Shown: one piece after another, positions 1 to 4,417 of the stretch
Position numbering within the stretch: position 1 is the stretch's first letter
Layout of the letters: every line of letters begins with the position of its first letter
Source of the DNA: Escherichia coli
GTDB lineage: Bacteria; Pseudomonadota; Gammaproteobacteria; Enterobacterales; Enterobacteriaceae
Reading direction: 5' to 3' (one strand)
Assembly: GCF_003334255.1 (NCBI RefSeq)
Contig: NZ_QOWU01000009.1
Length of the DNA stretch: 64,000 nt
Notes under the pieces: generated by a model
What the model was told of the DNA's origin: nothing
The model's database searches: none
What the model saw: the letters and a program-made list of their open reading frames with translations, nothing else
Made by a program: the position numbers and the translations under genes

Positions 1-408
1 CAGTGCTTTAGTCAGCGGAGGCAGAATAGTGTTGATATATTCGTCAGTGGTCTGCTTGATCTTATTAGCAATATCTTCAGCAGCACCCAGCGCATATTCA
101 AAGAAGCTAATCTGTAAACGCAGGTCATTCAGGCTTACATCGAGAGTGGAATACGTATTAGCGAACGCGTACAACGGCAGGTTCTCGTTCATTTTGCTAA
201 TTTCTTCGCACAGCTCGAGATTATATTTATCCCAGTCAAAAATAACGCCGCACAGACGCGCATTGTTTTCGATCAGTTTTAATAAGTCGTCACGGTCGTT
301 CGGGTAAACAATCTGGAAGTTCAGACGTTCAAGCGCGCGATGAAGTTCACGGATGGGTTCTTCTTTAAAATAAACCCCCATGTGATTCAATATTGCAATA
401 ACGTTCAT
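1..408 (-). CDS. cadA: Lysine decarboxylase CadA, N-terminal 136 codons only; gene continues beyond window start
   Basis: Reverse-complement of 380..408 translates MNVIAILNHM and of 1..28 gives ILPPLTKAL, matching recalled CadA N-terminus; not on ORF track because truncated. Confidence 0.9.
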   Translation of the reverse strand, partial: MNVIAILNHMGVYFKEEPIRELHRALERLNFQIVYPNDRDDLLKLIENNARLCGVIFDWDKYNLELCEEISKMNENLPLYAFANTYSTLDVSLNDLRLQISFFEYALGAAEDIANKIKQTTDEYINTILPPLTKAL

Positions 409-487: not shown

Positions 488-1822
488 TTAATGTGCGTTA
501 GACGCGGTGTGGTTATCCATTGAGTGGCTCTGGCGCTCGTGCATTTTGCGAGCGTAGAACATCAGGATAATCAGGCTGACGATGAAGGTACCTGCCAGCT
601 CGAAGGAGCTTGCGCCCATCAGCGCGATGAAGCAGAACACGCAACCCAGTACAGAGCAGATCAGGCTGACAAAGTTGCGGATGTTAACGCCTTCAAAACG
701 AATCAGGTCAACGCAAGAGTAGAAATACGGCAGCATAGTCAGCAGTACTGCGATACCGGTCAGTTCACCGAACAGGTCAGATGCTTTACCACCGGCAGAG
801 TTCATCAGAGTGATAAGGATCATCAGGGCAGTCATTTTCACTGCAGCCAGCAGCAGACCTTTTTTCGGAATACCGTTGCTGTCGACTTCACCATAAACTT
901 TCGGGAAGTTACCGTCGTTAGCGGCACGTACACCTGCCTGGCCTACCAACATCATCCAGGAGCCCAGAGAAGTCAGGCACGCAAAGGCGGTGAATGCAGA
1001 AACCAGCGGCGCAGCCCAGTTACCGAGGATAGTTGAAGCACTGATTGCAAACGGAGCACCGGAAGCCGCCATTACAGAAGACGGATACATACCGGAAAGC
1101 ACCTGAGTCGCAGCGATGTAAACAATACCTGCTAAACCAGTACCCAGCATGGTTGCCAGCGGAACGGTACGTTTCGGGTTTTTAACCATACCAGTACTTA
1201 CAGCTGCGGATTCAACACCCACGAAGGCCCACAGGCAGAGCAGAATACTTTTAATGATCGCATGACCATCAGTGGTATCCGCAGTATTCCAGTTAGCTGC
1301 ATAAGTTGCTGCATCAAACCAATGCCAGCCAACAATAGCAGTCATCACCACAGGAATAAGAACCAGCACCAGACCAATAGTGGTTAAACGGCTTACCCAA
1401 GTACCGCCGAGCATATTTACAAAGGTAAATACCCAGACGATAGCAATACAGGCGATACCCGCCGGAACAGGATCATTTAATACTGGGAAGAAGGTGGAAA
1501 GATAAGATACAGCGGTAATACCAATCGCCAGGTTACCAATCCAGTTAGCATGGTAATAAAGAACACCTGTCTGAAAACCAAATGCAGGGGAAATTTCTCC
1601 GGCATAAGCAATTGGGCCACCTTGTTGCGGGTTTTTTGTTGCCAGTCGGGCATATACATACGCCAGCGACATTGCACCAATAATAGAGATAATCCAACCC
1701 CAGATAGCAATACCACCGATACTTGCTAGGTTCGCAGGTAATAATGCAATACCGCTCCCCATCATATTACCGGCAACAACACCGGTACAGGCAAATAGCC
1801 CGATCTTCTTGGCAGAACTCAT
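488..1822 (-). CDS. cadB: Cadaverine/lysine antiporter CadB
   Basis: ORF track 444 aa, full-length recognition of CadB (MSSAKKIGLFACTGVVAGNMMGSG...); sits upstream of cadA on same strand. Confidence 0.95.
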   Translation of the reverse strand: MSSAKKIGLFACTGVVAGNMMGSGIALLPANLASIGGIAIWGWIISIIGAMSLAYVYARLATKNPQQGGPIAYAGEISPAFGFQTGVLYYHANWIGNLAIGITAVSYLSTFFPVLNDPVPAGIACIAIVWVFTFVNMLGGTWVSRLTTIGLVLVLIPVVMTAIVGWHWFDAATYAANWNTADTTDGHAIIKSILLCLWAFVGVESAAVSTGMVKNPKRTVPLATMLGTGLAGIVYIAATQVLSGMYPSSVMAASGAPFAISASTILGNWAAPLVSAFTAFACLTSLGSWMMLVGQAGVRAANDGNFPKVYGEVDSNGIPKKGLLLAAVKMTALMILITLMNSAGGKASDLFGELTGIAVLLTMLPYFYSCVDLIRFEGVNIRNFVSLICSVLGCVFCFIALMGASSFELAGTFIVSLIILMFYARKMHERQSHSMDNHTASNAH

Positions 1823-2186
1823 GCTCTTCTCCTAATTTCATTTTTGAATTTGGAGTCCGGGTCATGATGTATAACTATTTCCTGACCAGACCAAACTGGC
1901 GATAAGATTACTCACGAAAAAAGGATTAATCCTAAAGATTAGGTGAAATAACACAAAAGTTTCTGTAAGTGAGAACTTGAGGTTTTTTATTAACACATCA
2001 GGATCGCAAGTTGATATCATGAAAAGATAAACATTTAATGTTTACAATGGATTGCGTGACATTCTCTGGTTAAATTTATGTAATAAAAATTATGCGGCAA
2101 ATAAATTGCCGCAACATATTATACCAACAGGAACATACAAAAACTCAACAACAAATATTTCCGAGCATAAATCAACCCGGAGTTAC
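1823..2186 (-). promoter_or_regulatory. cadBA promoter region (Pcad), expected target of CadC and H-NS
   Basis: AT-rich 364-bp spacer between cadC stop and cadB start; role assigned from established cad operon biology, individual sites not resolved. Confidence 0.5.
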
Positions 2187-3725
2187 TTATTCTGAAGCAA
2201 GAAATTTGTCGAGATAAGGTACAACATAAGGAACAGAAGTCTGGAATATACCATTTTCAATCCAGTAAAGGGTGTTTGCCCCTGGGCGTAAATTAAAGGC
2301 GGTGAGATATGCATCAGCTGCTTCCCGGTTCATCCCCTTCATTTCATAAACCTTGCCAAGCAACACATAATTTAGCCAGGACATTTCAAGATCAATGCCA
2401 GTATTTATCGCCTGGTAAGACTCATCTGTTTTACCTTTTACCAGAGCACTGACCGCTTTTATTTGATATATAATGGACAGGTTGTTCAATTCCGGCAGTG
2501 TAACAATGTTATCTATTTCTGTGTTCAGTGCTGCTAATTGTTTTTCATCTAAAGGATGTTGAGAATGGCGCACGATATCAACTAATGCTTTTTCTGCTCT
2601 CGCGTAGGTAAATTCTGGGGATGATTGAACAATCTCACCTAATAATTCACTGGCACGGTTCAATGATTTATCATCGCCATGCAGTAAATAATCATGTGCC
2701 TGATAAAAATTAGTTAATAACGCACCACGATGCGGCAAAATTTTCTGGAGCGTCTCCTGCATTCGTTGTGGCCACGGTTGGTTTAACGCTTTTGATAAAC
2801 TCTCCAGTAAATCATTTTGAATCGCCAGCTGATTACCGTTAGTGATGACATAACGTTTATCCAGCATGGTTGAACCATCTGCATTGTCTACCAATTTTAT
2901 CGACATAAAGCATTGTTGAGCACGGTATTGGCGCTGATTAACAAACGCAATAGATAATGTTTTACCGGAACTGCTCGGTTCATCAATGTTGTAGTTGATT
3001 TTGTCATGCACCATAAAGGTGGAGAAGGTGTTAAGTGATGTCGCCACCAAATCACCCACGCCTATCGCGTAAGAGAGCTGATACGGGGAACTCCAGCTGT
3101 TACAACTTTTATTTACCATATTAATGTCAATATCGCGTGGATTGAGCAAAATACGCGATTTGCTCATAGGAAGACGTGTATCAAGACTTGAAAACGCTAC
3201 CAGTGCTACACAGATACCTAACGACAACAGGAAAAAAAACCATACCCAAAAGGTAGTGAATCGTTTGCTTTTAACTGGGGATTGTTCAGGTGGCGTTGCG
3301 GTGTTTTGAATGTTAAGACTGTGGGAGGGAGAATCTGTGGCAGGAACCGCCTCTGGTATAGGGGGAGGCGAAGATAGCATTATTTCCTCTCCCTCTTCTT
3401 CGCTGTACCAGATAACCGGCACCATTAATTTATAGCCGCGCTTTGGTACAGTAGCGATATAGACAGGACTATCTTCATCATTATCTTTTAATGACTTACG
3501 TAGTTCTGAGATACTCTGCGTCACAACGTGATTGGTGACAATACTTCTCTTCCAGACATTATCGATAAGTTCATCCCTGCTAAGTACTTCGCCACTGTGT
3601 TGAGCAAAGAAAACCAGAAGATCGATTAATCTCGGCTCAAGGGTAAGTTGACGCCCATTGCGGCTAATTTGGTTTATGGACGGAGTAACAAGCCATTCGC
3701 CAACGCGAACTACAGGTTGTTGCAT
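2187..3725 (-). CDS. cadC: Membrane-integrated ToxR-like pH/lysine-responsive activator CadC
   Basis: ORF track 512 aa, recognised as CadC; contains PPPIP tract at residues 120-124. Confidence 0.95.
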   Translation of the reverse strand: MQQPVVRVGEWLVTPSINQISRNGRQLTLEPRLIDLLVFFAQHSGEVLSRDELIDNVWKRSIVTNHVVTQSISELRKSLKDNDEDSPVYIATVPKRGYKLMVPVIWYSEEEGEEIMLSSPPPIPEAVPATDSPSHSLNIQNTATPPEQSPVKSKRFTTFWVWFFFLLSLGICVALVAFSSLDTRLPMSKSRILLNPRDIDINMVNKSCNSWSSPYQLSYAIGVGDLVATSLNTFSTFMVHDKINYNIDEPSSSGKTLSIAFVNQRQYRAQQCFMSIKLVDNADGSTMLDKRYVITNGNQLAIQNDLLESLSKALNQPWPQRMQETLQKILPHRGALLTNFYQAHDYLLHGDDKSLNRASELLGEIVQSSPEFTYARAEKALVDIVRHSQHPLDEKQLAALNTEIDNIVTLPELNNLSIIYQIKAVSALVKGKTDESYQAINTGIDLEMSWLNYVLLGKVYEMKGMNREAADAYLTAFNLRPGANTLYWIENGIFQTSVPYVVPYLDKFLASE

Positions 3726-4298
3726 AATAGAAACTCATTCGAAAAGGGAATGATGCAATGATAATTGCCACAACCTATTTTTACCATCTATAGATGGGTT
3801 TATTTACATATTATTGGTGAATGCAAGACGTTATTTTTACCAGCCATAAACTTCTTGATTACATAGTATTACGAAAGGATTTTACTGAGAACCAGAAGTA
3901 ATATTCCTTACCATCAAAATTCATCATCTTTGCCAAAGAAAAATGTTCAGAAAATAATCCATGGAAAATTGTCCGGAGCACTTACTATTTTAATGGATTG
4001 TTAGTCTTTGCATGAGCAAGCGAACTGATACATTTCTCTTTGTTCTCATTCAGAAAATCTCATCAGTCGCCGTTCAGACCGGTGTTGTGCTTTATGGATG
4101 CGTTACGCTCCTGATGACGTCATTTGACGTTCAACAGCATCACGGGGCCGCACGACATTTCACGTCAGTTAGTGCTATAGCTCAGGAACAAATTTTCCCG
4201 AATTGGGATATGCCCGCAAATTGCTGGTGATGTGGGGAGAATCTGGTTGAGTTCGGTAGAATTGATTTGGAGGCAGAACGCTTAAATCGTGGCGTCCT

Positions 4299-4331
4299 GA
4301 AACGAAAAACGGACCTCCGTGGAGGTCCGTT
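4299..4331 (-). terminator. Rho-independent terminator downstream of pheU
   Basis: Perfect 9-bp stem aacggacct/aggtccgtt (4308..4316 / 4323..4331) followed on minus strand by U-rich tract. Confidence 0.6.
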
Positions 4332-4341
4332 TATATGAATT

Positions 4342-4417
4342 TGGTGCCCGGACTCGGAATCGAACCAAGGACACGGGGATTTTCAATCCCCTGCTCTACC
4401 GACTGAGCTATCCGGGC
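4342..4417 (-). tRNA. pheU: tRNA-Phe (GAA)
   Basis: Reverse complement reads GCCCGGATAGCTCAGTCGGTAGAGCAGGGGATTGAAAATCCCCGTGTCCTTGGTTCGATTCCGAGTCCGGGCACCA, the canonical E. coli tRNA-Phe. Confidence 0.95.

What the first reader, a model, noticed from the sequence alone, without database searches (positions are those of the whole stretch)
3360..3368. CadC carries a PPPIP polyproline stall motif, a classic EF-P-dependent site
Minus-strand codons CCT CCC CCT at 3360..3368 encode Pro120-Pro122 of CadC, followed by Ile-Pro. Consecutive prolines stall ribosomes unless EF-P is present, and CadC levels set the output of the adjacent cadBA acid-stress operon. This couples the cad system at the start of the window to the efp/epmA/epmB genes later in it.
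Basis: partly seen in the sequence, partly recalled or inferred. Interest (0 to 1): 0.4.

Follow-up and report, generated by a model that had tools for sequence, protein, structure and literature searches.

The report
Known EF-P-dependent polyproline site in CadC

Summary
The window is E. coli K-12-like DNA starting at NC_000913.3 position 4358210. cadC lies at 2187..3725 (-). Codons CCT CCC CCT at 3368..3360 encode Pro120-Pro122, preceded by Ser119 (TCG) and followed by Ile-Pro. epmB, efp and epmA lie 12.7-20.7 kb away in the same window.

This triplet, with these codons, is the model EF-P substrate (Ude 2013; PMC8129111; PMC5936718). The PPPIP-to-AAAIS variant is EF-P-independent and raises CadC from 3-5 to 11-14 copies per cell. 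PcadBA::lacZ is the field's standard EF-P reporter.

My additions:
- The motif is no more than chance gives in this proline-rich linker (shuffle P about 0.17).
- Among the CadC relatives retrieved, it sits at this position almost only in E. coli-type sequences.
- The 40 bases around it are identical in 5046 of 5234 E. coli genomes.
- The closeness of cad and efp is specific to E. coli, so the link is functional, not genomic.
- The PPP codons are antisense to Gly18-Gly20 of the published overlapping gene laoB (3310..3435 +). I found no paper that mentions this.

Novelty: already known. Interest: low.

The parts
3360..3368 (-). Triproline codons CCT CCC CCT, encoding CadC Pro120-Pro122: the stall site
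   Evidence: Identical to the published codon string (PMC8129111).
3354..3371 (-). Full context S119-PPP-I123-P124 (TCG CCT CCC CCT ATA CCA). Ser occupies the -1 position.
   Evidence: Starosta 2014 (PMC4176338) places S among the -1 residues that favour peptide-bond formation, i.e. that weaken stalling.
3288..3293 (-). Second diproline, Pro145-Pro146 (CCA CCT, context TPPE), in the same linker
   Evidence: The literature speaks of two polyproline motifs in the CadC linker (PMC5811046; PMC5936718).
2187..3725 (-). cadC: membrane-integrated pH sensor and activator of cadBA, 512 aa
   Evidence: NF007540 scores 752.6 bits against a cut-off of 400. Pfam PF00486 and PF18500 are precomputed for the matching clusters.
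1823..2186 (-). cadC-cadB intergenic region, which holds the CadC-activated cadBA promoter
   Evidence: Position. The promoter assignment comes from the literature; it was not tested here.
488..1822 (-). cadB: lysine/cadaverine antiporter
   Evidence: NF007754 scores 920.4 bits against a cut-off of 585.
1..408 (-). 5' part of cadA (lysine decarboxylase), cut by the window start
   Evidence: The translation begins MNVIAILNHMGVYFKEEP....
16420..17448 (-). epmB: lysine 2,3-aminomutase, which makes the beta-lysine used to modify EF-P
   Evidence: TIGR03821 scores 533.9 bits against a cut-off of 369.3.
17490..18056 (+). efp: elongation factor P, carrying Lys34 in the loop KPGKGQA. It is transcribed divergently from epmB.
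   Evidence: TIGR00038 scores 253.6 bits against a cut-off of 185.8.
24434..25411 (+). epmA: EF-P-(R)-beta-lysine ligase
   Evidence: NF006828 scores 604.4 bits against a cut-off of 264.
3310..3435 (+). laoB: a 41-aa antisense overlapping gene inside cadC. Its Ile17-Gly18-Gly19-Gly20 codons (ATA GGG GGA GGC, 3358..3369) are the reverse complement of the PPP site.
   Evidence: ORF. NF038068.1 'LaoB_over_CadC' scores 103.1 bits against a cut-off of 45. PGAP annotates laoB at this position in strain CD09. Phase map. Paper: PMC5810103.

Best explanation
The window carries the E. coli cad locus. When ribosomes translate cadC mRNA they reach Pro120-Pro121-Pro122 (CCU CCC CCU). Peptide-bond formation between consecutive prolines is slow there, and the ribosome stalls. 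EF-P relieves the stall. EF-P is encoded 13.8 kb away. It is activated by beta-lysylation of Lys34, for which EpmB makes the beta-lysine and EpmA attaches it. Relief is only partial, and the non-CCG codon choice adds to the slowdown. Together they hold CadC at a few molecules per cell. That low number matches the amount of the co-sensor LysP, so cadBA is switched on only at low pH with lysine present. Without EF-P or its modification, CadC is under-produced and cadBA is not induced. Without the motif, or with 3xCCG codons, CadC is over-produced, escapes LysP control and cadBA is deregulated. Shown here: the sequence, the gene identities and the presence of all partners. Taken from published experiments: the stall, the EF-P dependence and the physiology.
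For: Sequence and numbering are exact. CadC, CadB, EF-P, EpmA and EpmB each pass their NCBIfam equivalog cut-offs, and the region is nearly identical to MG1655. EF-P carries Lys34 in the KPGKGQA loop. Literature: PMC8129111 gives the same codons, a threefold higher PcadBA output with 3xCCG, and induction already at 100 uM lysine. PMC5936718 gives 3-5 against 11-14 copies per cell and the EF-P-independent PPPIP/AAAIS variant. PMC5615199 and PMC6544042 use PcadBA::lacZ in efp and efp/epmA deletion strains as an EF-P activity assay. PMC4176338 reports CadC-XPPP-LacZ fusions. PMC11611912 reports the cad phenotype of efp and efpL deletions. The 40-mer around the motif is identical in 5046 of 5234 E. 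coli genomes that hold it.
Against: Nothing contradicts the mechanism in E. coli. Three limits apply to the claim that the motif is a selected regulatory device. Shuffling the linker gives PPP in 17% of trials. Across 81 distinct CadC linkers, PP and PPP occur as often as composition predicts: 57 observed against 62.6 expected for PP, and 18 against 14.9 for PPP. PPP at this alignment position occurs in only 7 of 112 full-length cluster representatives, six of them E. coli-type sequences and one an unclassified Enterobacteriaceae bacterium (P0090), and 26 of 112 have no PP in the linker. Avoiding CCG in three codons is expected 36% of the time from cadC's own proline codon usage, in which 8 of 28 are CCG. 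Ser at -1 belongs to the weak-stalling class. The primary paper (Ude 2013) is not held in the library, so I cite it through later papers.
Confidence: 0.96

Rival explanations
1. The triproline is an unselected by-product of a proline-rich, disordered linker. It does make CadC EF-P-dependent in E. coli, but it was not shaped by selection as a copy-number control.
For: The shuffle probability of a PPP in the E. coli linker is 0.17. PP and PPP counts across 81 distinct linkers equal the composition-based expectation. The motif has no positional conservation outside E. coli-type sequences, apart from one Enterobacteriaceae entry (P0090), and 26 of 112 orthologue representatives have no PP in the linker. 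E. fergusonii has PPA at this site and a PPP about 20 residues further on.
Against: Removing the motif, or recoding it to 3xCCG, deregulates the lysine dependence of cadBA, so the motif has a fitness-relevant effect in E. coli. The 40-mer is identical in 96% of E. coli genomes that hold it. That figure is weak evidence, because the species is only 1-5% divergent in this gene.
Confidence: 0.2
2. Part of the low CadC yield comes from +1 frameshifting at the slippery CCC-C (P121-P122) rather than from pure stalling. The frameshifted ribosomes would make a truncated product.
For: CCC/U-CCN is described as slippery, and 'ribosome slipping' is invoked for the 3xCCC and 3xCCU CadC variants (PMC8129111; PMC12856214). 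A +1 shift at P121 would give a 168-aa product: 121 residues plus a 47-aa out-of-frame tail.
Against: No frameshift product of wild-type cadC is reported in the papers I read. 3xCCA, which is not slippery, gives an output similar to wild type, so stalling alone accounts for most of the effect.
Confidence: 0.1
3. The sequence at 3358..3369 is held constant in E. coli partly because it also encodes Ile-Gly-Gly-Gly of the antisense protein LaoB. On this view dual coding, not only translational tuning of CadC, constrains it.
For: A LaoB ORF is present and passes its equivalog cut-off. The PPP site is antisense to LaoB residues 17-20. Intact laoB is reported only in Escherichia/Shigella, and in my sample PPP at this site is confined to E. 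coli-type sequences except for one Enterobacteriaceae entry (P0090).
Against: All 64 synonymous PPP codon combinations keep Gly-Gly-Gly in LaoB, so laoB cannot explain the codon choice. E. fergusonii keeps a LaoB-like ORF (AGG instead of GGG) although CadC there reads PPA, so the two features come apart. The shared distribution is expected anyway, because both features sit in the same 126 bases of a fast-evolving linker. The function of LaoB rests on a single study.
Confidence: 0.07

Closest known systems
The E. coli CadC PPP(120-122) EF-P-dependent stall site (Ude et al. 2013, Science 339:82; Krafczyk et al. 2021, PMC8129111)
   Same: It is the same object: same gene, residues, codons (CCU CCC CCU after TCG) and genome region.
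   Different: Nothing of substance. Over the first 33.8 kb compared base by base, the window differs from MG1655 only by two synonymous SNPs, in cadB and dcuA. Two small intergenic differences lie further on. None of these is in cadC.
Other EF-P-dependent polyproline proteins used for stoichiometry control, e.g. EnvZ (PMC6023141) and CpxA in Shigella
   Same: Consecutive prolines in a membrane sensor make its synthesis EF-P-dependent and tune its copy number.
   Different: These are different proteins and motif contexts. CadC is the case in which a change in copy number was tied directly to loss of co-sensor (LysP) control.
laoB/cadC antisense overlapping gene pair (Hücker et al. 2018, PMC5810103)
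   Same: A 41-aa ORF in frame -2 inside cadC, found here at 3310..3435 (+).
   Different: That paper never mentions proline or EF-P, and no paper in the library holds both 'laoB' and 'EF-P'. The coincidence of the stall site with LaoB Gly18-20 is my own reading of the sequence.

Membership tests
EF-P-dependent polyproline stall motif | Three or more consecutive proline codons (or a strong XPPX motif) inside a translated ORF | tested here: met
   CCT CCC CCT encodes P120-P122 of the 512-aa CadC ORF.
EF-P-dependent polyproline stall motif | The genome encodes EF-P with the modifiable Lys34, plus the EpmA/EpmB modification enzymes | tested here: met
   efp, epmA and epmB are in the window and pass their equivalog cut-offs. 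Lys34 lies in the KPGKGQA loop.
EF-P-dependent polyproline stall motif | Protein output falls without EF-P or its modification | not testable with these tools
   Published: PcadBA::lacZ is low in an efp deletion strain and restored by complementation (PMC6544042; PMC5615199). That epmB and epmA (yjeK, yjeA) mutants behave alike is in Ude 2013, which I recall from memory; the paper is not held.
EF-P-dependent polyproline stall motif | Removing the prolines abolishes EF-P dependence | not testable with these tools
   Published: CadC-PPPIP/AAAIS is EF-P-independent and reaches 11-14 copies per cell (PMC5936718).
CadC (ToxR-like membrane one-component regulator of cadBA) | N-terminal winged-helix DNA-binding domain plus C-terminal periplasmic CadC_C1 sensor domain, at full-length equivalog score | tested here: met
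   NF007540 scores 752.6 bits against a cut-off of 400 over residues 1-509. PF00486 and PF18500 are recorded for the identical cluster.
CadC (ToxR-like membrane one-component regulator of cadBA) | Located directly upstream of cadB and cadA on the same strand | tested here: met
   cadC 2187..3725, cadB 488..1822 and the start of cadA at 1..408, all on the minus strand. The same order is seen in Raoultella, Pseudescherichia and E. fergusonii.
LaoB antisense overlapping gene | A 41-aa ORF in frame -2 inside cadC that matches the LaoB model | tested here: met
   ORF 3310..3435 (+). NF038068.1 scores 103.1 bits against a cut-off of 45 over 1-41 of 41 positions.
LaoB antisense overlapping gene | Transcribed and translated, with an arginine-dependent phenotype | not testable with these tools
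   Reported for O157:H7 Sakai only (PMC5810103). Not known for this strain.

The most novel reading that the evidence does not exclude
The CadC stall site and the Gly18-Gly20 tract of the antisense gene laoB are the same nine base pairs. No paper in the searchable library connects the two. The most novel reading is that the two features interact. Three forms are possible. Antisense laoB transcription could modulate cadC mRNA exactly where ribosomes queue at PPP; in Sakai the laoB start site lies 289 bp upstream of its start codon, so the transcript would span roughly window 3021..3590. Chromosomal cadC PPP mutations could carry a hidden LaoB effect, because PPP-to-AAA turns LaoB GGG into AAA. 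Dual coding could help fix the motif in Escherichia.
Probability: 0.07. Interest if true: 0.35.

Novelty: already known. Interest (0 to 1): 0.07.

Why it matters
The finding itself changes nothing. It re-identifies the founding example of EF-P-dependent translation and of copy-number control by polyproline stalling, and does so correctly from raw sequence. Two points go beyond the published picture. First, the motif is not statistically or phylogenetically distinguished among CadC linkers, so its regulatory role cannot be assumed for CadC in other genera. Second, anyone editing these codons on the chromosome also edits laoB.

Tried and rejected
- The primary paper (Ude 2013) is not held in the library under the PubMed id I tried (23239624; later papers cite it as 23239623). 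I relied on later open-access papers that restate its results.
- I tested whether the closeness of cad and efp is a conserved linkage, and rejected the idea. The cadCBA-dtpC-lysU cassette lies next to unrelated genes in Raoultella. In Pseudescherichia vulneris it lies next to glk, ypdAB and alaC. In E. fergusonii it lies next to pgaABCD and a GGDEF gene.
- I tested whether PP or PPP is enriched in CadC linkers. It is not.
- I tested whether avoiding CCG at the triplet is unusual for cadC. It is not: probability about 0.36 from 8 CCG among 28 proline codons.
- I asked whether laoB constrains the proline codon choice, and rejected it. All 64 synonymous combinations keep LaoB Gly-Gly-Gly.
- P0008 is an 84%-identical 'CadC' labelled E. 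coli. It turned out to be a CadC-like gene on an IS66-rich island with no cadBA next to it, so I left it out of the linker shuffle test. It was still among the 112 representatives counted.
- P0004 is a singleton whose linker matches the +1 frame of cadC, so it is probably a frameshifted assembly. It too was left out of the shuffle test but counted, where it is one of the 7 PPP-site entries.
- Locus L002 never appeared in the script sandbox. I compared the second half of the window with MG1655 through ORF coordinates and two small alignments instead.

Full report
**Observation.** The reverse complement of window 3300..3440 contains tcg cct ccc cct ata cca. The only long ORF across it is 2187..3725 on the minus strand. 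It is 512 aa and its sequence reads ...EEEGEEIMLSSPPPIPEAVPATD.... Counting from the ATG at 3725 puts Pro120 at 3368..3366, Pro121 at 3365..3363 and Pro122 at 3362..3360. Ser119 (TCG) comes before them and Ile123 (ATA) and Pro124 (CCA) after.

**Identity of the locus.** The first 33.8 kb of the window match E. coli K-12 MG1655 (NC_000913.3 from 4358210) with two synonymous substitutions, one in cadB and one in dcuA. Further on there are two small intergenic differences: one extra A plus two SNPs in the glyX-glyY spacer, and a T8 run where MG1655 has T9 after rlmB.

The ORF is CadC: NCBIfam NF007540 scores 752.6 bits against a cut-off of 400. Downstream lie cadB (488..1822, 920.4 bits against 585) and the first 136 codons of cadA, which the window start cuts off.

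The EF-P system is present as claimed. epmB is at 16420..17448 (-), efp at 17490..18056 (+) and epmA at 24434..25411 (+). All three are above their equivalog cut-offs. EF-P carries Lys34 in the loop KPGKGQA. The distances from the cadC start are 12.7, 13.8 and 20.7 kb.

**Is it more than chance?** CadC holds the only PPP among the 63 annotated proteins of the window. The window-wide proline frequency of 4.57% predicts 1.8 PPP in all, and 0.05 in a 512-aa protein of average composition. The motif, however, lies in the proline-rich cytoplasmic linker, which has 9 Pro in 51 residues. Shuffling that linker produces a PPP in 17% of trials and a PP in 81%. The sequence alone therefore does not single the motif out.

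**What is known.** This exact site is the model substrate of the EF-P field.
- Krafczyk et al. [quoted passage not shown] Recoding to 3xCCG raised PcadBA output threefold and allowed induction already at 100 uM lysine (PMC8129111).
- Jung et al. 2018 summarise Ude et al. 2013. Stalling at the linker's proline motifs is relieved only by EF-P. CadC is held at 3-5 molecules per cell. The PPPIP/AAAIS variant is EF-P-independent, rises to 11-14 copies and activates PcadBA aberrantly (PMC5936718).
- CadC-XPPP-LacZ fusions were used to rank the -1 residue. Ser, the native residue, falls in the class that favours peptide-bond formation, so the native context is not the strongest possible staller (PMC4176338).
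- The EF-P paralogue EfpL gives a related cad phenotype (PMC11611912).

**Comparative evidence (new here).** A protein search with CadC returned 120 cluster representatives at 62-100% identity. I aligned the 114 of near full length and counted motifs in 112 of them.
- PPP at the E. coli position occurs in 7 of these 112. Six are E. coli-type sequences and one is an Enterobacteriaceae bacterium with APPPRP.
- 19 of 112 have a PPP somewhere in the linker. 86 of 112 have at least one PP, and 26 of 112 have none.
- Klebsiella pneumoniae-type CadC has its PPP some 30 residues further on. Raoultella has SPLAP at the E. coli site.
- E. fergusonii has CCT CCC GCA (PPA) at the site and a CCG CCA CCT triproline nearer the membrane helix.
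- Over 81 distinct linkers, the number with PP (57) or PPP (18) does not differ from composition-preserving shuffles (62.6 +/- 3.5 and 14.9 +/- 3.4).
- Within E. coli, the 40-mer centred on the motif is identical in 5046 of the 5234 complete genomes that contain it. One variant I read is a synonymous CCT-to-CCC change at Pro122.
- cadC's own proline codon usage is 10 CCT, 8 CCG, 8 CCA and 2 CCC. Three codons would avoid CCG by chance 36% of the time.

In short, the regulatory role is well shown experimentally in E. coli. Neither enrichment nor conservation supports extending it to CadC in general.

**Genomic coupling.** The functional link is real. The physical proximity is not conserved. The cadC-cadB-cadA-dtpC-lysU block is flanked upstream by unrelated genes in Raoultella. 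In Pseudescherichia vulneris it is flanked by glk, ypdAB and alaC. In E. fergusonii it is flanked by pgaABCD and a GGDEF gene. In E. coli, cadC abuts tRNA-Phe pheU and a pseudogenised integrase. From my own knowledge, that spot is a genomic-island insertion site. I therefore treat the co-location as incidental.

**An unremarked overlap.** On the plus strand, 3310..3435 is a 41-aa ORF, MLRLWEGESVAGTASGIGGGEDSIISSPSSSLYQITGTINL. It matches NCBIfam NF038068.1 'LaoB_over_CadC' at 103.1 bits against a cut-off of 45. PGAP annotates it as laoB in a strain whose cadC is split by IS1. LaoB is a published antisense overlapping gene with ribosome-profiling support and an arginine-dependent competition phenotype. 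It is reported as intact only in Escherichia/Shigella (PMC5810103).

LaoB codons 17-20 (ATA GGG GGA GGC, 3358..3369) are the reverse complement of the PPP site, offset by one base. The wobble bases of Pro120 and Pro121 coincide with the wobble bases of Gly19 and Gly18. All 64 synonymous PPP codon combinations keep LaoB Gly-Gly-Gly. Only a CCC codon at Pro122 changes LaoB, turning Ile17 into Met. A PPP-to-AAA change turns LaoB GGG into AAA.

The laoB paper never mentions proline, and no paper in the library contains both 'laoB' and 'EF-P'. E. fergusonii keeps a LaoB-like ORF (…SAGGDADIISS…) without PPP at this site, so the two features can be separated. I regard this as a curiosity. It is also a caution for chromosomal mutagenesis. 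It is not evidence of a new mechanism.

**Mechanism and rivals.** The best explanation (confidence 0.96) is the published one. A stall at PPP is partly relieved by beta-lysylated EF-P, and this sets a very low CadC copy number matched to LysP. Three minor or complementary readings remain:
- The motif is an unselected by-product of linker composition (0.2).
- +1 slippage at CCC-C contributes to the low yield. A +1 product would be 168 aa (0.1).
- A dual-coding constraint from laoB helps hold the sequence constant (0.07).

**Verdict.** Interest is low.

Noticed in passing
window 3310..3435 (+): This is the 41-aa antisense overlapping gene laoB, inside cadC (NF038068.1, 103.1 bits against a cut-off of 45). 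Its Ile17-Gly18-Gly19-Gly20 codons are the reverse complement of the CadC PPP stall site. No paper in the library mentions laoB together with EF-P or proline.
   Followed up: partly
window 2000..4000; hits H1-H9 and locus L003: Many complete E. coli genomes carry an IS element (IS1, IS2/IS3 or IS903) inside or beside cadC. In strain CD09, IS1 sits about 13 bp downstream of the PPP codons and splits cadC. Whether this is an insertion hot spot or repeated adaptive loss of cadC was not examined.
   Followed up: no
window 3726..4417: Between cadC and tRNA-Phe pheU (4342..4417, -) lies a pseudogenised tyrosine-recombinase/integrase fragment, yjdQ in MG1655. This marks the junction as an old island-integration site. 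It fits with the cad cassette lying in different chromosomal contexts in other genera.
   Followed up: partly
window 1310, 8082, ~34346..34360, ~51837: The window is not exactly MG1655. It has synonymous SNPs in cadB (Ala171 GCG to GCA) and dcuA (Gly161 GGC to GGT). The glyX-glyY spacer has one extra A and two SNPs. The terminator after rlmB has a T8 run where MG1655 has T9. The source strain was not identified.
   Followed up: partly
window 18602..18648 (+): Guanidine-II (mini-ykkC) riboswitch aptamer upstream of gdx (sugE): Rfam RF01068, 50.4 bits against a gathering score of 32. This is a known element.
   Followed up: no
L008 10001..11575: An 84%-identical CadC-like gene in a genome labelled E. 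coli (CP028768.1) lies on an IS66-rich island beside autotransporter and intimin-like genes, with no cadBA next to it. Its linker reads SSLPSVP in place of SSPPPIP.
   Followed up: no
protein P0004: A singleton 507-aa 'CadC' at 93% identity has a linker (…TVLTFKTPQRHLNNPQLKANDSLPFG) that equals the +1 reading frame of cadC a few codons downstream of the PPP site. It is probably a frameshifted assembly or sequencing error.
   Followed up: no
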